Shown here: piece after piece, positions 5,218-43,486 of the stretch | How the letters are laid out: every line of letters starts with the position of its first letter | How positions within the stretch are numbered: the first letter of the stretch is position 1 | From: a phage | Strand: one strand, 5' to 3' | DNA length: 46,874 nt | Sequence record: PZ445467.1 | Notes under the pieces: model-generated | What the model was told of the DNA's origin: nothing | Seen by the model: only the letters and a program-made list of their open reading frames with translations | Databases searched by the model: none | Position numbers and translations under genes: made by a program

Positions 5218-5826
5218 TTAATCATCAAGTTTCACGCCGGGAATTTTGCCTGCTGCGATGGCTTCATAAATTAGCTTAGCCTCATCCTCGCGCTTGTAAT
5301 CTTGCGCTACCATTTCTAATACCGCGCAGATAGATTCAAGTACAGCCTCATGCTTCCTTTCTGCTTCTGTGCGAAATGGGATGAAAACATCCTTATTGGA
5401 TGGGGTTATTGCGTAGTAAATCTCACCAGATGGTCTGATAACTATTTTTTCGCCATCAAGACCAATAACCTTGACTTTTCCCCATGACGTTCCGTTGCTG
5501 ATATACTCACATTCACACCCAACTGGCGGCAGTCCTTCTCCGTTCCATGCTGAATTTTTCGATGCTGCGAGTGCTGCTTTGTATTGCCAATAGGTTACTA
5601 TCGACTCCTTATGGTCGGAAGATAATTGCGTAGCCCATTCTTCTCCATACCAGAAATGCACAAGGCTATTTCCTGTGTGATGTTTCCATGAGAACCCATC
5701 ATAGTGTGGGTCATTTGTGTCCCATGCGCACAGCGAACCGTCATTATCTTGAGTAATTGACAGCGCGTTTTGAGGCCACCAACCACGCTTAGGCAATTCT
5801 TGAACTAACAGGTCGATAAGTTTCAT
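5218..5826 (-). CDS. hypothetical protein (202 aa)
   Basis: ATG preceded by GGAGAA; last gene of a four-gene leftward block. Confidence 0.55.
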   Translation of the reverse strand: MKLIDLLVQELPKRGWWPQNALSITQDNDGSLCAWDTNDPHYDGFSWKHHTGNSLVHFWYGEEWATQLSSDHKESIVTYWQYKAALAASKNSAWNGEGLPPVGCECEYISNGTSWGKVKVIGLDGEKIVIRPSGEIYYAITPSNKDVFIPFRTEAERKHEAVLESICAVLEMVAQDYKREDEAKLIYEAIAAGKIPGVKLDD

Positions 5827-6577: not shown

Positions 6578-6856
6578 ATGAAACTATCGCAACGCGGCAT
6601 GGAGGTGTTTGGAATTACCGATGCCGTAGATATATCGCCTTACATCACCACTGAGACAACACAGAATCAGTTTGATGCGCTGACAAGCCTTGCCACCGAC
6701 ATCGGCATTGACTCGTTCCGCAAATCAACGCTTCTGAAGAAACACAATCTCCGCTGCTTCTCATGTGTCGTCGCGCATTTCATCGTGTGGGGTGAGAAGA
6801 CTGGCGACAAAGCAAAATGCAAGGCTGAAAAAGAGGTTTACTGGTATGGCTATTAG
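6578..6856 (+). pseudogene. 5'-truncated GH24 (T4/P22 gp19-type) lysozyme remnant, 92 aa
   Basis: QNQFDALTSL...IGIDSFRKSTLLKKHNL resembles the C-terminal half of P22-type lysozymes; N-terminal catalytic region absent; intact SD and ATG. Confidence 0.45.
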
Positions 6857-7310
6857 CAAAAACATGAAGGCGTTTCTGGATATGCTGGCGTACAGCGAGG
6901 GCACTGATAACGGGCGGCAGAAAACCAATAATCATGGTTATGATGTGATTGTTGGCGGCTCACTGTTTACCGACTATTCCGATCACCCGCGCAAGCTGAT
7001 TAGCCTGCCTAAGCTGGGCATCAAATCCACTGCCGCCGGGCGCTATCAGGTGCTGGCTAAATTTTATGATGCGTACAAAAAGCAACTGCGCCTGCCTGAC
7101 TTCTCCCCCGCGTCACAGGACGCTATCGCAATGCAACTAATCCGTGAATGCAAAGCCACCGCCGATATTGAGACTGGTCGCATTGCTGATGCTATCCATA
7201 AATGCCGCTCCCGCTGGGCTTCATTACCGGGCGCTGGCTATGGTCAGCATGAGCAGAAGCTGGATAAGTTGATTCAGGTATACAAAGAGGCTGGCGGAGC
7301 TGTGGCATGA
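6846..7310 (+). CDS. endolysin, lambda R-type lytic transglycosylase
   Basis: 154 aa; FLDMLAYSEGTDNGRQKT.NHGYDVIVGG.LFTDYSDHPR and WASLPGAGYGQ closely match lambda R; GAGG SD. Confidence 0.9.
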   Translation: MAISKNMKAFLDMLAYSEGTDNGRQKTNNHGYDVIVGGSLFTDYSDHPRKLISLPKLGIKSTAAGRYQVLAKFYDAYKKQLRLPDFSPASQDAIAMQLIRECKATADIETGRIADAIHKCRSRWASLPGAGYGQHEQKLDKLIQVYKEAGGAVA

Positions 7311-20832: not shown

Positions 20833-21497
20833 ATAAAGCCGCACGAAGCGGCCTTATTGCTGGTTTAAGCATTGCCAGCATGCTTTCTTAATATCCAGCC
20901 CCGTAACCCATACATACCCCTACATATGATTGCGATAATGCTGGATATTAAGTGTTGTGGTGGCCGGTGCTGATATCCGGCATAAGGCGCTTATTCGGCG
21001 GCGTCGAGCTTGCTTATTCGCTTGAGCCATCCTCGTGAGTCAGCCACGTCCCACTGCGCATCAGCCTGCGCATTCACCACAACGGAAATAGCACTGGATA
21101 ACCAAGCGCGCAGACTCTTCACGATTATCTGCTCAATGCTCTTACCTGTTGTGTGCCACGTTTCGTGTGGCTTACGGCAACGACATTACCGGGTTATTCG
21201 CTGCACCCTTGAGGGATTTACTAAGGCGACATGCCCGTTGTTACCCACGAATGAGAGTACTGTCTTCGAGCAGACTTTGCCGCGCAAGAACGACGATCAA
21301 TCACAATACCCTCATTTGTGGGTGCCCATTATTAATCACAGCGGGCCACTGCGCCGAATTTGCTTACAAGGAATCGGAAGACCTTGCTGACTTACAGGCT
21401 ATTACGCCGCCATCAGAACAACATCATCGTTTGCATTTATCTTTGTGGTCAGTTTCTAAAAAGTCCGCAAAGTCGCTTACGAAAACCATCTGAAATA
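20833..21497. other. ORF-poor, inverted-repeat-rich region
   Basis: no convincing CDS; 13-bp inverted repeat CTTAATATCCAGC (20887-20899) / GCTGGATATTAAG (20940-20952); hairpins at 20867-20885 and 20963-20981. Confidence 0.5.
20838..20860 (+). terminator. weak rho-independent terminator
   Basis: stem GCCGC/GCGGC with 5-nt loop then CTTATTGCTGGTTT. Confidence 0.3.
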
Positions 21498-21542
21498 CAA
21501 TCTACACCACAAAATAATCACTGTCAACACCTGTGATATAAT
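21498..21542 (+). promoter_or_regulatory. promoter of major tail gene with ATCTAC motif
   Basis: motif 21498-21510; extended -10 TGaTATAAT at 21534-21542; GGAGA SD before ATG 21579. Confidence 0.5.
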
Positions 21543-21578: not shown

Positions 21579-22295
21579 ATGGCTATTTGTGCAAATGATA
21601 AAGGCGTTCTGGTCGGTCGCATGACCAGACTGTTCCTTGCTGAAGGGTGCGGAGACGCAGTTCCGGAGGCGGGAGACTGGAAGTATTTAGGCTCAACCAC
21701 CAGTAAGGGTGTTGACTACTCGCCGCAGACTACCACGTCGGAGGCAGATACCACTGGCGGTTTTGTTTCCACTCTCGTTACCAGCTCTGATATGACCATC
21801 AGCGCAGAGGTGGAAATCCGCAAGAATGACCCGAGCGATGAGTTTGGCTTCCATCGTCTGGTTGAGATTTACGCCACCGAACTGAAAGCTCGTCGCCAGC
21901 CTTCCTTGTGGGTGCGTCAGGTGACTGGTGCGACTATCGTTACGGCGTATTGCAACATCACCAGCATCAGCTACGAAGGTGGTACGAACGATATCGTTAC
22001 TGGCAGCCTTGAGTTCAAGGTTTACGATTCTGATAGCGTTACCGTCGAAAGCCTTGAGCCTCTGGCATTCACTACAGACCTGCCATCAACTGGCACGGCT
22101 GGCAACCCGTTAACTGTTGCTGTTGAAGGTGGTGTCGCTCCTTACACTTATGTATGGCGCAAAGATGGCGTGGTTGTCGGCAGCGAATCAGGCGCGTCTC
22201 TGGCAAGCCCTACCGCTGGCGTGTATACCGTCACGGTGACTGATTCGTCTACTGACCCTGAAATTATTATCAGCACGGCTTGCACTGTGTCCTGA
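21579..22295 (+). CDS. major tail protein with C-terminal Ig-like domain
   Basis: 238 aa; Thr/Val/Gly-rich C-terminal ~80 aa typical of Ig-like decoration; position before chaperone and tape measure. Confidence 0.6.
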   Translation: MAICANDKGVLVGRMTRLFLAEGCGDAVPEAGDWKYLGSTTSKGVDYSPQTTTSEADTTGGFVSTLVTSSDMTISAEVEIRKNDPSDEFGFHRLVEIYATELKARRQPSLWVRQVTGATIVTAYCNITSISYEGGTNDIVTGSLEFKVYDSDSVTVESLEPLAFTTDLPSTGTAGNPLTVAVEGGVAPYTYVWRKDGVVVGSESGASLASPTAGVYTVTVTDSSTDPEIIISTACTVS

Positions 22296-22302
22296 TAAAT
22301 AA

Positions 22303-22330
22303 AAAAGCCCCGGAAGGGGCTTGTTTTATT
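22303..22330. terminator. bidirectional rho-independent terminator
   Basis: stem AAGCCCC/GGGGCTT with GGAA loop, flanked by A-run and TTGTTTTATT. Confidence 0.65.
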
Positions 22331-22592
22331 CTTGCGGTGGCTCTGGTAGTGGCATCCAGTGGGTGGCATCACTAATCCAGCCATATTCATTAGTTTGAGG
22401 GTGATTACCGCGCCCATCTCCGTATTTAAAACTCTCCATAAAGCCATAATGTTTATCACCATTAATGTTCACAAAACCGTAATAAGCAGGAATAACGCCG
22501 ATCTCACACGTAACCAGTAAGGGAAAACTAGTTCTCCAGTTTAGCTCGCCAATTACAGGCATCCTCTCACTGCACTTAATCCACTGGATCAT
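22326..22592 (-). CDS. DUF551-like protein (88 aa)
   Basis: C-terminal WISDATHWMPLPEPP resembles the DUF551 phage domain signature. Confidence 0.45.
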   Translation of the reverse strand: MIQWIKCSERMPVIGELNWRTSFPLLVTCEIGVIPAYYGFVNINGDKHYGFMESFKYGDGRGNHPQTNEYGWISDATHWMPLPEPPQE

Positions 22593-22732
22593 ATCACCTT
22601 ATCCTCATCAAAAATCACACCAATCACACGAAGCAAGTCTTTCGCCATGCGTTCAGCTTCTTCATAGTCGTAACCCGCATCGACATACAAATCGGTGTAG
22701 AAAATCAGGTCGGATTTTGTTTGTTCGTTCAT
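22589..22732 (-). CDS. hypothetical small acidic protein (47 aa)
   Basis: ATGA overlaps on both sides; below ORF-track cutoff. Confidence 0.35.
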   Translation of the reverse strand: MNEQTKSDLIFYTDLYVDAGYDYEEAERMAKDLLRVIGVIFDEDKVI

Positions 22733-22923
22733 TTTTTATCGTCGCTCTTAACTAATGCCCAAACAAGCGCGGCGACCCAGCCAATAAAACTCCATCCAAC
22801 GAGAATATTCAGTACGCAGATTGCAGTCGTGTTTACGTGCTTGCGTTGCAGAGCCACAAAAGATGGCAGGAGGTACGCAAATATCACCAACCCAACAAAA
22901 AACAACAAAATAACGACGTCCAT
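22729..22923 (-). CDS. superinfection immunity-type small membrane protein
   Basis: 64 aa; RKHVNTTAICVLNILVGWSFIGWVAALVWAL matches the LLGW..IGW..AL.WA signature; GAGG SD. Confidence 0.55.
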   Translation of the reverse strand: MDVVILLFFVGLVIFAYLLPSFVALQRKHVNTTAICVLNILVGWSFIGWVAALVWALVKSDDKK

Positions 22924-22955
22924 AGCTAACCTCAACTGTTAATAACTTGTTTATA

Positions 22956-23249
22956 TTACATGCCATTCTTTTCACACAAAGCAACAGCCACATCACGCAA
23001 TTGCTCTTTAGTCATATCCTTGCGTGCATAAACCATTTCTACGATAGCAAGGCCGATTATTTCTGCTGATTCGTTGTTTTTTGCAGAACCTTTTACCACC
23101 ACTTCCGCAAGATTCTTGCTGATACCGTTATCGCGAACATCAGCAGTGTTCATGGCGATTTCTCCAATGTTTTTGCACATATCGGAAGTCGCACTGGCGG
23201 CAAAAGAAGAAGCCAATAGTACAGATGCAATCAACATTTTAATTTTCAT
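22956..23249 (-). CDS. small secreted protein with signal peptide (97 aa)
   Basis: MKIKMLIASVLLASSFAASA then AxA-type cleavage site; GAGGTGAG SD. Confidence 0.5.
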   Translation of the reverse strand: MKIKMLIASVLLASSFAASATSDMCKNIGEIAMNTADVRDNGISKNLAEVVVKGSAKNNESAEIIGLAIVEMVYARKDMTKEQLRDVAVALCEKNGM

Positions 23250-23287
23250 AACTCACCTCATTTATTCATCACTCGTTTCGATGACTT

Positions 23288-23337
23288 GAATCTACATCAC
23301 CACCTCGCAGGTGTCAACACCACTGAGATGATATAAT
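23288..23337 (+). promoter_or_regulatory. promoter of tail chaperone/tape measure operon with ATCTAC motif
   Basis: motif 23288-23301; GTCAACACC element; extended -10 TGaTATAAT 23329-23337. Confidence 0.5.
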
Positions 23338-23366
23338 CAACATCAGTCAAATTCAGGATGCAAAAC

Positions 23367-24074
23367 ATGAGCAATCGCACGCCACTAACAGAAATCGGGG
23401 AGATGCGCATCTCTCTTTCTGACAGGAGTTTTTTCTTTAAGCCATCATTCCGCGCAATGAATGAAATTGGCACACCAAAAGAAATCGTCGAGGTGTACGC
23501 TAAGCTCAATGGCATTGATTATGTTGCGCCATTGCAGCACGTCGAGTACCTGCCATTTGGCGCGCAGATGCAGGTTATGAAGACCATCAGCAAGCCTGTT
23601 TATGGTCGCCATGTGCTGAGTGCGGCCTATATCGTAATGCAGTCATGCTGTGAAGATGATGTTTCTGTGCTGATTGGTGGATGGAAGCCAACTCCGCGCG
23701 GCGTGCGATATGTGCCGGGCATCATGCCTGTGAGCGACATTATTATTATTGCGCGCAACCTGATGCAGCACGGCGTCATTGGCAAATCACCACTCAAAGT
23801 GCCTGAACGCCTGGAAGAGCAGGGCAAGAAAACCACAAACGAGTTTCATGCGTCTCAATACATCATCTCAGCACGCACGCATTTCGACATGACGCGCGAT
23901 GAGGCTGAAAACCTGTCTATGACAGAGTTTCAAATGATGATTAAGAATAAATATCCAGAGCCGAAAGGGTTAACGAAAGAAGAGCGCGCGGCAGAGTACG
24001 ATCAGGCCAAAGCAGACCGTGAGCGCATGAAGGCACTGGCTGAACGCAAAGCGAAAAAAGCGAGGAATACATAA
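23367..24074 (+). CDS. putative tail assembly chaperone (235 aa)
   Basis: position immediately upstream of tape measure; charged Lys/Arg/Glu-rich C-terminus; no frameshift site identified. Confidence 0.35.
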   Translation: MSNRTPLTEIGEMRISLSDRSFFFKPSFRAMNEIGTPKEIVEVYAKLNGIDYVAPLQHVEYLPFGAQMQVMKTISKPVYGRHVLSAAYIVMQSCCEDDVSVLIGGWKPTPRGVRYVPGIMPVSDIIIIARNLMQHGVIGKSPLKVPERLEEQGKKTTNEFHASQYIISARTHFDMTRDEAENLSMTEFQMMIKNKYPEPKGLTKEERAAEYDQAKADRERMKALAERKAKKARNT

Positions 24075-27015
24075 TGGCTGAAGAAGTCGGCGGAATTGTC
24101 TATGAAGTCGGGATGGATGTATCCGGACTTAAAGCTGGCACAAGTTCAGCGGAATCAGAATTATCAAAATTTGACTCCGCTGTAAGTGGCTCCACGAAGA
24201 ATTTAAATAAACTTGATGGTCAGGCTGACTCAACTGGCAAGGCATTCTCCTCCCTTGTCTCCGTGGTTAAAAGCATTGATGCAACACTCAGCAAGATGGC
24301 AGCTTCCAGTGATGGTGCAGCAAGCGCTGTCAAGTCAACATCGCAATCTGCTGAGTCAGCGAATCAGGTTATCGATGCATTAAATCAGCAACTTGCCATG
24401 ATGCAGCAGCAACAGCAACAAGCCGCTGTATCAACAGGAAGGCTGGAAACCTCAATTAATGCCGTTACGACTGCTATTCGTGAGCTTGGAACATCAACTG
24501 GCGGCGCTGGCGCAAGCATATCTGGCACAGAAAGATTAATTGAAAGCCTCGGCAATCAGGTTGCCATTCTTGAAGAGCAAATGGAAAACGGCGCGAGAAG
24601 TGCGGCAATTCTTGCGGCGCAACTCAGAGCTGGAGATGGCGCAACTGACGCGCAAAAGGCCAAGATTGCTGAGCTGACTGGTCGCCTGTACGACATGAAG
24701 AATGGCACAGAGTCGGCTGGCAAATCCACAAACGGATTCAGGAACGCGCTACAACAGGGCGGTTATCAGGTTCAGGACTTTATTGTTCAGGTTCAGAGTG
24801 GGCAGTCTGCTCTTGTTGCATTCAGTCAGCAGGGTTCGCAACTTGCATCTGTATTCAGTCCGGTGGCTGGCGCAGTGTTAACGATAGCGACAGTTATCGC
24901 CGGCTCACTGATGGCCTCACTTAGTAACGGCAAGAATGCCATTAATGCCATGAAGGATGCCATATCTGCAATGGATCAGGTCATCAGTGTTTCCAGTAAC
25001 GGCGTGGCAGCATACTCAGATAAGTTTGCAGCACTGGCAAAAGCCAACACAACAGTTGCGACACTGATGCGCCAGCAAGCGCAACTTGAACTTTCAGCGG
25101 CTCTCTCTAAGGTATCGAAAGAAGTATCAAAAGCATCAGGTGAGTTCGTCACCTTTGGTGACAGACTTTTCGCATCTTTTGCTGGTGCAAACGTCAGCGT
25201 TAAATCATTCAACGATTACCTCTCAATGCTGAATATCACTACCAATGATTTCAGCGAGGCAATGAAGCAGGCTGCATCTGCCGGACTTGCCGGGCAATCC
25301 ACGATGAATAATATGATTGCCACCGTTGGCGCTCTGGCAAGTCGATTTGATTTGACCGACCAGCAAGCATTTGAATTTGCTAAACAACTCTCTGAAATCG
25401 CCAAAAACCCGAGCAATGAAAAACTTAATGCTTTAATTGTTACTCTGCAAAAGGTAGGTGAAGGACAGTCATCTGGCGCACAAAAGGCACGAGAATATGC
25501 TGCTCGTTTGCTGGAAATTGCCACCACAACAACTGACGCAACAATGCGCCTGAAAGCTCTTAAGGAGATGACTGACTCCTTAACGTCAAGTCAGGACAAG
25601 GCATTGCAAACTGCTCGTCAGACACTGTTTATTGAGAAGCAAACTGGCGATGAAAAACTAAAAGCTCAGGCATGGCGTGATGCGGAGGCTCAGGGATTAA
25701 AGCAGAATACCGCTGCGTTTCGTGAATATTACAATGTCAGACTTGAGACGTACCGTCAGCAGGAAAAAAACGCTCAGGCAGCAAAAGATGAACGTAATGC
25801 AAACAACCAGCTAAAAACTGAATTAAAGCAACAGGAAACAATCCAGCAGAAATTAAATAAACTGCGGCAGGAAGCTCTACTTGCTGGTCAGGCAGAATCC
25901 ACAAAAGAACTATCCCGCGAGCAAGCCATTCTCAACGCGCAGCAATCGCTTGGCAAAGCTGCCACTCAGGAGCAAATAAAACTGGCTGGTGAGTACGCTG
26001 CGAAGATTTGGGACCAGAAGAATGCACTGAAGGAACAGGCGGAAGCGGAGAAAGAAAAGCAGCGGGTAGAAAAATCATATCAGGGATTACGTGCCATTGC
26101 GTCACCAACGACTGGCATTGACAGCGAATACCAGCAACGCATGGCTGACCTTGATGCTTATGCTGCTGCGTACCCACAGAAAATTACAGAGATTGAACAG
26201 ACTCGCGCGTCCATTGAAGCACAATACCGCCAGCAGAGAATGGATGCTATGTGGGCTGAATGGCAGCAACAAAGCCTCGGAGCGCAACTGTTTGGCACCG
26301 CGCTGGATTCTGCAATGAGCACGGCATCAAACAGCATCACCGGATTGCTGACAGGTACAATGAGCGTTCAGGATGCCATGCGCAGTCTCGGCTCTACAGT
26401 GCTTAACTCGCTGGTAAATAGCTTCGTCGAGATGGGCGTGCAGTGGGTAAAATCTGCCGTTATGGGACAGACTGCACAGGTTACGGCTACGGCAACCACA
26501 ACGGCTGCGCAAACGGCAGGACTGGCAACTACAACAGCAGCATCCACTGCGGCGGCAGCCACCACCACGGCAGCGTGGACTCCGGCAGCAATCGTCGCAT
26601 CAATCGGTTCATTCGGCGGCGCTGCTGCAATTGGGGTAGGCGCTGTTCTTGGGGCGCTGGCGATGGGTATCGCTGGCAAGCGAAAAAATGGTGGTCCTGT
26701 TAGCGCCGGAAGTATGTACGAAGTGGGCGAAAATGGCTTACCTGAGATATTCCAGGCATCCAACGGTCGCCAGTACATGATTCCCGGAAATGACGGTTCA
26801 GTTATCAGCAACAAAGACCTGACAGGCGGCAGCGGTGGCGTCGTGGTTTATAATAGCATCATCAATAACAGCTCAGCGCAGGTTAGCAGCAGCGCCAGAG
26901 ATAATGGTGATGGCAGCGTAACAGTTGAGACGATTGTGAGTGATATTGAGAACAACGGCGCGATAGGGCAGGCTATTTCAAGAAATTACTCAACAAACCG
27001 GAGAGCAACAGAATA

Positions 27016-27016
<1 letters not shown>
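24074..27016 (+). CDS. tail tape measure protein
   Basis: 980 aa, Ala/Gln-rich helical protein with Ala/Thr low-complexity tract and hydrophobic segment near C-terminus. Confidence 0.85.
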
Positions 27017-31738
<4,722 letters not shown>

Positions 31739-43042: not shown

Positions 43043-43486
43043 ATTATGATTGAATCATATCATAAGTATTGAATCATGCAACATCAAATACGACTCACGT
43101 GGGTAACGTGGGGCAGCCGTGGGGAACATCACCTTCCCCACGAACTTTTACTCTAAGTATATGTAATATAATATAATTATTATTATTTGGGTTAATGGGT
43201 AATATTATTATTCATATTATAGATAGTAATTAACATAATATTAACAAATGGATTATTTGAATATATTTATAAGGGGATGGGTATGAAATCTGCCCCTTTT
43301 TACCCACGAAAAATAAAAACATTCAAATCAATAATTTACGATGAAAAACGTGGGGCAACCAACCTTCCCCACGACCTGCCCCACGAGCAAAAATTTACCC
43401 CACGGGCACGTTTTTAACGCATCCCTGTTGACGTAGAATCATCGTTGATGTAGATTGAACTCATCGAAACAAACGAGGGTGAAGAG
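43043..43486. promoter_or_regulatory. origin-like region: two clusters of CGTGGGG/CCCCACG heptamers flanking a ~155-bp AT-rich tract, plus divergent promoters
   Basis: heptamer copies between 43098-43142 and 43301-43407; AT-rich 43145-43300; TTGACG 43428-43433 and TAGATT 43451-43456; inverted motif copies 43429-43439, 43446-43457. Confidence 0.5.

What the first reader, a model, noticed from the sequence alone, without database searches (positions are those of the whole stretch)
22326..23249. Leftward superinfection-exclusion-like block beside the major tail gene
Four coupled genes read against the tail operon: a signal-peptide periplasmic protein (22956-23249), a small membrane protein with the superinfection-immunity signature LNILVGW..IGW..AL.WAL (22729-22923), a 47-aa acidic protein and a DUF551-like protein. 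A membrane immunity protein plus a secreted partner suggests a two-component block to DNA injection or receptor access.
Basis: partly seen in the sequence, partly recalled or inferred. Interest (0 to 1): 0.5.

Follow-up and report, generated by a model that had tools for sequence, protein, structure and literature searches.

The report
Leftward accessory operon with T4-Imm homologue
A small backward-reading four-gene operon wedged into the tail genes of a virulent Skatevirus-type phage carries a genuine relative of phage T4's Imm protein, which blocks DNA entry by later-arriving phages, but the secreted protein next to it is an independent, swappable gene rather than Imm's partner.

Summary
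Four minus-strand genes lie at the stated coordinates, between the major tail gene and the tail chaperone/tape-measure genes. They have their own conserved sigma-70 promoter and share a bidirectional terminator with the tail gene.

- **Imm:** the 64-aa membrane protein is a true T4 Imm/PF14373 homologue (63.8 bits; 36% identity to T4 Imm). It keeps the two residues whose mutation weakens T4 Imm. Close relatives already carry this annotation in GenBank.
- **Two-component idea:** not supported. In 39 distinct related cassettes, Imm and the secreted protein assort independently: both 15, Imm only 14, secreted only 8, neither 2. Klebsiella phages carry the secreted homologue at another locus.
- **The other genes:** the 47-aa acidic protein is the invariant core of the slot. 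The DUF551 gene is a swappable end module.

Verdict: an ordinary modular accessory operon with one member of a known exclusion family. Interpretation partly supported, interest low.

A tmRNA-like RNA about 800 nt upstream, noticed in passing, looks more unusual.

The parts
23289..23317 (-). Sigma-70-type promoter of the leftward operon (TTGACA, 17 nt, TAGATT), in the 108-nt divergent region before the chaperone gene
   Evidence: The consensus scan gives 10 of 12 matches. The same extended motif occurs at 21499-21527 (-) and 43428-43456 (+), three sites against 0.35 expected. Both hexamers are invariant in Skatevirus-like and Roufvirus-like loci whose flanks have diverged.
22956..23249 (-). SP97: secreted 97-aa protein (mature form about 77 aa, pI 5.0) of an orphan family
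   Evidence: It has a signal peptide with an A-x-A site. The AlphaFold model is a four-helix bundle (pLDDT 80.5 overall, about 90 in the mature part). C25, C92 and R39 are invariant, and D40 and G42 nearly so (at least 90%), across distant homologues. It matches phrog_2315 only. Only 22 cluster representatives are found among 1.84 billion proteins. dN/dS is 0.11.
22729..22923 (-). Imm: 64-aa inner-membrane protein, a homologue of T4 Imm
   Evidence: PF14373 scores 63.8 bits and phrog_1039 gives E = 4e-23. It is 36% identical to T4 Imm, pairwise E = 9e-12. It has two hydrophobic segments. R27 and W44 align with T4 R33 and W50, whose mutation lowers exclusion.
22589..22732 (-). p47: 47-aa acidic cytoplasmic protein, the invariant core gene of this slot
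   Evidence: It is present in all 39 distinct cassettes. It also occurs in Roufvirus-like phages, where the Imm stop/p47 start overlap is kept. Twenty of 47 residues are invariant across the genera compared. The model is a helical hairpin with pLDDT 91.8. dN/dS is 0.05.
22326..22592 (-). DUF551 protein (88 aa), the terminator-proximal swappable module
   Evidence: PF04448 gives E = 5e-11. Only 3 related loci (4 cassettes counting the window itself) carry this allele; other loci carry different small genes here. The DNA is 84-86% identical to lambdoid phages HK140, HF4s and N7. The gene at this position was deleted in some viable genome-reduced seszw mutants.
22305..22322 (.). Bidirectional intrinsic terminator shared with the convergent major tail gene
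   Evidence: A 7-bp stem with 5 G-C pairs is followed by T-runs on both strands. It is annotated as two terminators in phage Skate.
21579..22295 (+). Major tail protein gene (left flank)
   Evidence: phrog_853 gives E = 1e-87.
23358..27016 (+). DUF6246 gene (by position the likely tail assembly chaperone, 23358-24074) and tape measure gene (24074-27016). The tape measure is the inferred target class of Imm.
   Evidence: PF19759 gives E = 2e-73. The 980-aa tape measure has hydrophobic segments at residues 256-286 and 837-869. T4 Imm binds the T4 tape measure protein.

Best explanation
The block is a modular accessory operon read leftward from a host-type sigma-70 promoter. It was inserted between the major tail gene and the tail chaperone gene of a virulent O-antigen-dependent siphovirus (Skatevirus cluster; closest relative Escherichia phage Bas77).

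Its genes are independent modules, not one machine:
1. Imm is a small two-helix inner-membrane protein homologous to T4 Imm. By homology it is made after infection, sits in the inner membrane, binds the tape measure protein of a later-arriving phage, and stops that protein from opening the channel through which DNA crosses the membrane. The superinfecting genome is then stranded in the periplasm.
2. SP97 is exported by Sec into the periplasm as a disulfide-stabilised four-helix protein. It acts on its own target, which is unknown.
3. p47 is a cytoplasmic helical hairpin and the ancestral, always-present gene of the slot.
4. The DUF551 protein is an exchangeable cytoplasmic domain shared with temperate lambdoid phages.

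Shown here: gene structure, family membership, conserved promoter, independent assortment and purifying selection. Inferred: early expression, tape-measure binding and an exclusion phenotype.
For: Imm family membership:
- The HMM score is above the gathering cut-off and higher than that of T4 Imm itself (63.8 against 58.2 bits).
- Both proteins fall in the same PHROG.
- Pairwise identity to T4 Imm is 36%.
- R27 and W44 correspond to T4 R33 and W50.
- T4 Imm co-purifies with its tape measure protein, and the R33A and W50A mutants lose activity (preprint 10.64898/2026.03.06.709160).
- This phage's tape measure protein has two membrane-type hydrophobic segments.

Modularity:
- 39 distinct cassettes split into both genes 15, Imm only 14, SP97 only 6, a divergent SP only 2, and p47 only 2.
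- Twelve more distant relatives have no cassette; their tail and chaperone genes are 47-111 nt apart.
- When SP97 is absent, Imm sits behind the identical promoter and leader.

Other support:
- The promoter hexamers are invariant across genera.
- dN/dS is 0.05-0.11.
- No integrase was seen among the 10 large non-structural ORFs scanned, and the group is described as lytic.
- These phages use O-antigen as their only receptor, for which receptor masking is argued to be futile (PMC11990801). By inference, an injection block suits them.
Against: - No experiment exists for any siphoviral Imm homologue.
- Imm is nearly identical (core residues 31-57 almost invariant) in phages whose tape measure proteins belong to four types of different length, under 30% identical over the N-terminal roughly 800 residues. 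If it binds the tape measure, it must recognise only the shared C-terminal part, or it has a different target.
- Early timing is inferred from promoter type alone.
- SP97 and p47 were retained in all roughly 69 sequenced CRISPR genome-reduced seszw mutants, down to 36.0 kb. That is unexpected for purely dispensable accessory genes, although the list of removable genes could not be read.
Confidence: 0.6

Rival explanations
1. One reading: Imm and the secreted SP97 form an obligate two-component block, with a periplasmic partner and a membrane partner acting together on DNA injection or receptor access.
For: The two genes are adjacent in one operon in the window and in 15 of 39 distinct related cassettes. 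Their compartments, periplasm and inner membrane, are compatible. T4 also uses one membrane protein (Imm) and one periplasmic protein (Sp) for exclusion.
Against: Imm occurs without SP97 in 14 cassettes, and SP97 or its divergent allele occurs without Imm in 8. In Klebsiella phages the SP homologue lies beside the lysis genes while Imm-p47 sits in the tail slot about 15 kb away. T4 Imm excludes when expressed alone from a plasmid. T4 imm and sp are separate genes with separate targets.
Confidence: 0.08
2. SP97 is an independent second layer of exclusion that works like T4 Spackle. It would be a small acidic periplasmic helical protein that inhibits a cell-wall hydrolase of incoming virions (for example the NlpC/P60 tail-tip protein) or modulates lysis.
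For: SP97 and Spackle have the same overall design. Both are 97-aa precursors with a cleaved signal peptide, a mature form of about 75-77 aa, an acidic helical bundle, and one Cys near each end of the mature chain. The tail module encodes an NlpC/P60 protein at 28825-29340. Klebsiella-phage homologues lie directly beside, and divergent from, a GH24 lysozyme-type endolysin.
Confidence: 0.15
3. The functional pair is Imm plus p47. The two are translationally coupled, with p47 acting as a cytoplasmic partner or regulator of Imm.
For: The Imm stop and p47 start overlap (ATGA) in the window. The 4-nt junction is conserved in Roufvirus-like phages whose Imm is only about 45% identical. Imm never occurs in this slot without p47 (29 of 29 cassettes).
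Against: p47 occurs without Imm in 10 of 39 cassettes and is the constant gene of the slot, so the co-occurrence is trivially expected. T4 Imm needs no such partner. No p47 homologue is annotated beside T4 imm.
Confidence: 0.1
4. The operon's main role is not exclusion. p47, and possibly SP97, would be needed for efficient phage growth, for example in host takeover, envelope remodelling or regulation of tail-gene expression. Imm would then be a passenger.
For: p47 is universal in the slot and under strong purifying selection (dN/dS 0.05). SP97 and p47 persist in every sequenced genome-reduced seszw mutant, whereas the study reports 65% of that phage's genes as removable.
Against: Twelve more distant relatives with the same tail module lack the whole cassette. 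SP97 is naturally absent from 16 of 39 cassettes. Retention in the mutants may only reflect the design or efficiency of the CRISPR library, and the supplementary gene lists were not available.
Confidence: 0.12

Closest known systems
Phage T4 Imm (immunity to superinfection; Pfam PF14373, phrog_1039)
   Same: It belongs to the same Pfam and PHROG families and is 36% identical over the conserved core. It shares the size class, the two hydrophobic helices and the conserved Arg and Trp that matter for T4 Imm activity. Like T4, the phage is virulent.
   Different: It is shorter (64 aa against 83 aa) and lacks T4's C-terminal tail. It is encoded by a siphovirus with a non-contractile tail and an unrelated tape measure protein. 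It lies one gene away from the tape measure gene inside the tail cluster rather than in an early replication-gene region. Its function is untested.
Phage T4 Spackle (Sp, gp61.3; PF25676), a periplasmic inhibitor of the gp5 tail lysozyme
   Same: SP97 is likewise a 97-aa precursor with a Sec signal peptide, and matures into a small acidic helical bundle with a Cys pair.
   Different: No sequence or fold similarity was detectable. The phage has no gp5-type lysozyme among the tail proteins scanned.
HK97 gp15, an inner-membrane superinfection-exclusion protein proposed to act through the tape measure protein
   Same: It is a small phage-encoded inner-membrane protein of a siphovirus, with the same proposed logic of blocking genome translocation by way of the tape measure protein (citing earlier work).
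   Different: HK97 is temperate and gp15 is expressed from the prophage. No sequence relationship was tested or seen here.
Morons and accessory cassettes of tailed phages (an autonomous promoter-gene-terminator unit inserted between conserved genes)
   Same: The block has its own promoter and terminator. It is inserted between two genes that are adjacent in more distant relatives, and its gene content varies.
   Different: Classical morons are expressed from prophages. This phage group is virulent, so the cassette is more likely an early lytic transcription unit.
T5 Llp and T1 Cor (receptor-masking exclusion lipoproteins of virulent siphoviruses)
   Same: They are envelope-targeted exclusion factors of virulent siphoviruses.
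   Different: SP97 has no lipobox, since cleavage at ASA|TS leaves no Cys at position +1. These phages use O-antigen rather than a porin as receptor.

Membership tests
T4 Imm / PF14373 Imm_superinfect | Match to the family HMM above the curated gathering score | tested here: met
   63.8 bits against a cut-off of 27.9, covering profile positions 2-42 of 42. T4 Imm itself scores 58.2 bits.
T4 Imm / PF14373 Imm_superinfect | Direct sequence similarity to the founding member, T4 Imm | tested here: met
   BLASTP gives 36% identity over 53 residues, E = 9e-12. tblastn also recovers T4 imm.
T4 Imm / PF14373 Imm_superinfect | Small integral membrane protein with hydrophobic helices flanking a conserved basic loop | tested here: met
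   Kyte-Doolittle segments fall at residues 1-26 and 32-60, with the loop QRKHVN between them.
T4 Imm / PF14373 Imm_superinfect | Conservation of the residues shown to matter for exclusion (T4 R33 and W50) | tested here: met
   R27 and W44 are invariant in the alignment of the window protein, T4 Imm and three Roufvirus-type Imm proteins.
T4 Imm / PF14373 Imm_superinfect | Excludes superinfecting phage at the DNA-entry step and binds the tape measure protein | not testable with these tools
   This needs expression, plating-efficiency and pull-down experiments.
T4 Spackle / PF25676 (considered for SP97) | Match to the family HMM or to T4 Sp | tested here: not met
   SP97 has no Pfam hit at E <= 1. 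BLASTP against T4 Sp gives E = 1.1. Sp belongs to phrog_1586 and SP97 to phrog_2315, and they touch only through their signal peptides.
T4 Spackle / PF25676 (considered for SP97) | Shared three-dimensional fold with the solved Spackle structure | tested here: not met
T4 Spackle / PF25676 (considered for SP97) | Secreted small helical protein with a disulfide | tested here: inconclusive
   The signal peptide, four helices and invariant C25/C92 are present. The disulfide and its geometry could not be checked because no model coordinates were available.
Cor / Llp-type exclusion lipoproteins (considered for SP97) | Lipobox with a Cys at +1 of the signal-peptidase II site | tested here: not met
   The signal peptide ends AASA|TSDMC. 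The first Cys is 5 residues into the mature chain, and there is no L-x-x-C motif.
DUF551 / PF04448 | Match to the family HMM above the gathering score | tested here: met
   43.6 bits against a cut-off of 22, covering the full profile 1-68.
Moron-type autonomous cassette | Own promoter and terminator, inserted between genes that are adjacent in relatives | tested here: met
   The promoter and terminator were found and the promoter is conserved. Twelve relatives have the tail and chaperone genes only 47-111 nt apart. Expression itself was not tested.
Two-gene (obligate) exclusion system Imm+SP97 | Consistent co-occurrence of the two genes across relatives | tested here: not met
   Both genes occur in 15 cassettes, Imm only in 14, SP only in 8 and neither in 2. 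In Klebsiella phages the two lie at separate loci.

The most novel reading that the evidence does not exclude
SP97 founds an uncharacterised family of secreted, disulfide-bonded four-helix phage proteins with an invariant RDxG loop. This family would be a periplasmic exclusion or cell-wall-hydrolase-inhibitor factor, functionally analogous to but unrelated to T4 Spackle. Together with Imm, this siphovirus would then have assembled both layers of T4-style superinfection exclusion, periplasmic and inner-membrane, into a single promoter-driven cassette beside the gene for the protein Imm targets.
Probability: 0.12. Interest if true: 0.55.

Novelty: new member of a known kind. Interest (0 to 1): 0.25.

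Why it matters
Imm-type proteins are the least understood of the classical exclusion factors. A 2026 preprint first tied T4 Imm to the tape measure protein. A siphoviral Imm sitting one gene from a highly mosaic tape measure gene, in BASEL-collection phages that can be cultured, offers a simple way to test whether the Imm-tape measure mechanism extends beyond contractile-tailed phages, and which part of the tape measure is recognised.

In practice, such genes matter for phage cocktails, because a Skatevirus carrying Imm may exclude its cocktail partners. Beyond that, the block is an ordinary accessory cassette that is already annotated by homology.

Tried and rejected
- **SP97 in a known family: none found.** Pfam, NCBIfam and PADLOC gave nothing for SP97 or for 23 distant relatives. 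Context for the distant relatives could not be fetched, because the alignment was too divergent for a locus scan and cluster names were uninformative.
- **Imm and the tape measure inherited as a matched pair, like a colicin and its immunity gene: rejected.** Imm alleles do not track the four tape-measure types, and no tape-measure column discriminates Imm-positive from Imm-negative phages. The 780-800-aa type is always Imm-positive (17 of 17), but linkage alone explains this.
- **An SP97 paralogue beside this phage's own lysis genes, as in Klebsiella phages: none present**.
- **Fold of p47:** it is a plain helical hairpin. A fold search was judged uninformative and was not run.
- **Removability of these genes in the seszw genome-reduction study:** the supplementary tables are not held. 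Only the deposited mutant genomes could be used.

Full report
**What the window is.** The region is 98.5% identical to Escherichia phage ClaudiaMuster_Bas77, and about 92% identical to roughly 150 Salmonella, Escherichia and Shigella siphoviruses of the Skatevirus/Macdonaldcampvirus cluster. These are small virulent siphoviruses whose only receptor is O-antigen, recognised by a tailspike (PMC11990801). A scan of ten large non-structural ORFs found SSB, helicases, an exonuclease, a Sak4-like protein and a ParB-like protein, but no integrase.

**The observation.**
- SP97 is at 22956-23249.
- Imm is at 22729-22923.
- p47 is at 22589-22732.
- A DUF551 protein is at 22326-22592.

The block is convergent with the major tail gene (21579-22295; phrog_853, E = 1e-87). 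It is divergent from a DUF6246 gene (23358-24074) that directly precedes the 980-aa tape measure gene.

A TTGACA-17-TAGATT promoter sits at 23317..23289, and a bidirectional hairpin terminator at 22305-22322. SP97, Imm and the DUF551 gene have Shine-Dalgarno sequences. p47 has none, but its ATG overlaps the Imm stop (ATGA), and the DUF551 start overlaps the p47 stop in the same way.

GenBank records of close relatives already annotate these genes as 'superinfection immunity protein', 'DUF551 domain-containing protein' and hypothetical proteins.

All four are real genes. Pairwise dN/dS over 20-34 distinct alleles is 0.11 for SP97, 0.06 for Imm and 0.05 for p47, against 0.05 and 0.03 for the flanking structural genes.

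**Imm.**
- The 64-aa protein scores 63.8 bits on PF14373 (cut-off 27.9). T4 Imm itself scores 58.2 bits.
- Both proteins fall in phrog_1039.
- The pairwise alignment gives 36% identity, E = 9e-12.
- The protein has two hydrophobic segments.
- A 2026 preprint shows that T4 Imm co-purifies with a fragment of the T4 tape measure protein, and that the R33A and W50A mutants weaken exclusion. The equivalent residues, R27 and W44, are invariant in the window protein, T4 Imm and three Roufvirus-type Imm proteins.
- This phage's tape measure protein has two membrane-type hydrophobic segments.

Membership in the Imm family is therefore solid. The mechanism, blocking tape-measure-mediated DNA translocation at the inner membrane, is an inference from homology.

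**SP97.**
- The signal peptide is MKIKMLIASVLLASSFAASA|TS. The -1 Ala is invariant and the -3 position is always Ala or Val. There is no lipobox.
- AlphaFold2 with 28 homologues gives four helices, with pLDDT about 90 in the mature part.
- An exhaustive profile search of 1.84 billion representatives found only 22 clusters, nearly all proteins of about 100 aa. Across these, C25, C92 and R39 are invariant and D40 and G42 nearly so, and two members carry the domain twice.
- No Pfam, NCBIfam, PADLOC or PDB sequence match exists.

I tested the attractive idea that SP97 is a Spackle analogue, since both are 97-aa precursors of secreted, acidic helical proteins with a Cys pair. It failed every test:
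- BLASTP gives E = 1.1.
- There is no PF25676 hit, and the two belong to different PHROGs.
- Viral structure models return only other uncharacterised phage proteins of about 100 aa.

**Are Imm and SP97 partners?** I fetched 51 related loci through the conserved chaperone gene and scored each gene by tblastn. Counting these, the GenBank loci fetched earlier and the window itself, distinct cassettes split as follows:

| Content | Cassettes |
|---|---|
| SP97 + Imm + p47 | 15 |
| Imm + p47 | 14 |
| SP97 + p47 | 6 |
| Divergent SP allele + p47 | 2 |
| p47 only | 2 |

- Twelve more distant relatives have no cassette at all. Their tail and chaperone genes are 47-111 nt apart.
- When SP97 is missing, Imm sits behind the same promoter and the same AATGAGGTGAGTTATG leader.
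- In Klebsiella siphoviruses the SP homologue (27-35% identical) lies divergently beside the endolysin-holin-spanin genes. In KP591P1 an Imm-p47 pair occupies the tail slot about 15 kb away.

The two genes therefore assort independently, and the two-component reading is not supported.

**p47 and the DUF551 gene.**
- p47 is the only gene present in every cassette.
- It is also found in Roufvirus-like phages, immediately after a 99-aa Imm homologue and with the same 4-nt overlap.
- Twenty of its 47 residues are invariant across these groups, and it models as a confident helical hairpin.
- Because p47 occurs without Imm in 10 cassettes, the Imm-p47 junction is better explained by Imm having been inserted upstream of a resident gene than by a functional pair.
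- The DUF551 gene is the variable end of the operon. This allele is 84-86% identical in DNA to lambdoid phages, and other loci carry DUF2591/NinX-like, DUF7740 or other small genes there.
- DUF551 is described as a portable domain found in Stx-phage Ea22 variants and in YfdS (PMC10834534).

**Promoter.** The hexamers TTGACA and TAGATT are invariant from Skatevirus-like to Roufvirus-like phages, while the sequence around them has diverged. The same extended motif occurs at two other places in the window. This supports a working host-type promoter, and by inference early expression.

**Points that do not fit neatly.**
- Imm is almost identical in phages whose tape measure proteins fall into four unrelated length classes (780-800, 816-827, 969-980 and 1096-1107 aa). 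No tape-measure column separates Imm-positive from Imm-negative phages. If the target is the tape measure, only its shared C-terminal part can be recognised.
- All roughly 69 deposited CRISPR genome-reduced mutants of phage seszw, down to 36.0 kb, keep SP97 and p47, while a few lose the DUF551-like gene. This hints that SP97 and p47 are less dispensable than an exclusion gene should be. The paper's lists of removable genes were not available.

**Verdict.** The block is a modular accessory operon. Its one interpretable gene is a new, siphoviral member of the known T4 Imm family, already annotated by homology. The secreted protein belongs to a rare orphan family of unknown function and is not Imm's obligate partner. 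Interest is low to moderate.

**Side observation.** About 800 nt to the left, a second copy of the same promoter drives a conserved tmRNA-like RNA that looks considerably more unusual. It is described under the things noticed in passing.

Noticed in passing
window 21136-21495 (-), promoter at 21527..21499 (-): A second copy of the cassette-type promoter drives an unannotated structured RNA that resembles the tag-coding half of tmRNA.

- **Tag frame:** a 10-codon frame preceded by AUAAAU reads ANDDVVLMAA, then a stop. Homologues read ANDDLMLMAA, ANDSEVLMAA, ANDSEMRVAA, ANDNVFLAVA and ANEEMYLAVA (compare the E. coli SsrA tag, recalled from memory as ANDENYALAA).
- **Structure:** two pseudoknots follow, supported by compensatory changes. 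The covariation score is 0.298 against 0.146 +/- 0.018 in shuffles (0 of 500 reach it).
- **tRNA-like domain:** ARAGORN finds no tmRNA or tRNA, and no acceptor stem or T-arm was seen. Rfam gives only sub-threshold tmRNA hits (28.5 bits against 47).
- **Distribution:** the element occurs in about 700 phage records of unrelated families (Ackermannviridae, Schitoviridae, Ounavirinae, Chaseviridae, Roufvirus), often beside tRNA genes. It is also found in 1205 of 5426 complete E. coli genomes; in the two loci examined it lies in a lambdoid prophage between the Q antiterminator and the holin gene. It was unannotated in almost every hit listed.
- **Known cases:** a 2014 survey (PMC4131195) lists phage tmRNAs only for mycobacteriophages and Bacillus phage G.

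   Followed up: partly
window 24074-27016 (+) and loci L005-L040: The tape measure gene is extremely mosaic among phages whose adjacent chaperone gene is mostly 97-99% identical. Four length classes exist (780-800, 816-827, 969-980 and 1096-1107 aa), with under 30% identity over the N-terminal roughly 800 residues. The major tail protein stays 90-99% identical. This implies either different tail lengths or wholesale replacement of the tape measure.
   Followed up: partly
window 6578-6856 (+): A 92-aa ORF matches only the C-terminal half (residues 69-143, 45% identity) of the GH24 T4-type lysozyme endolysin of related Klebsiella phages. It lies just upstream of, and overlaps, a different ORF (6765-7310) that sits where an endolysin would be expected, directly before the holin gene. 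It appears to be a relic of an endolysin replacement.
   Followed up: no
L057 3441-3731, L058 3441-3731 (Klebsiella phages VLCpiS13c, BUCT541): The only more distant SP97 homologues found in GenBank phages lie divergently next to the endolysin-holin-spanin genes, followed by a 43-aa and a roughly 290-aa gene. The 290-aa gene has a homologue in the window at 5218-5826 (-), but no SP97 paralogue lies beside it.
   Followed up: partly
GenBank MZ375295-MZ375355 and OL9647xx (genome-reduced seszw mutants), cassette region equivalent to window 22326-23340: All roughly 69 CRISPR genome-reduced mutants of Skatevirus seszw keep the SP97 and p47 genes at 100% identity, even at 36.0 kb. At least three (MZ375338, MZ375351 and MZ375352) have lost the terminator-proximal DUF551-like gene.
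   Followed up: partly
window 43428-43456 (+): This is a third site with the same promoter motif (TTGACG, 17 nt, TAGATT, preceded by GATG). It lies upstream of a run of small plus-strand ORFs at 44.2-46.7 kb and is probably another transcription start of the same class.
   Followed up: no
window 21059-21150 (-) and L066 2424-2491, 2838-2916: A long imperfect hairpin, CACAACAGGTAAGAGCATT...TGCTCTTATCGTTGTGG, recurs as a punctuation element. It separates modules of the non-coding region that holds the tmRNA-like RNA, both in the window and in E. coli prophages. It may be an RNA-processing site.
   Followed up: no
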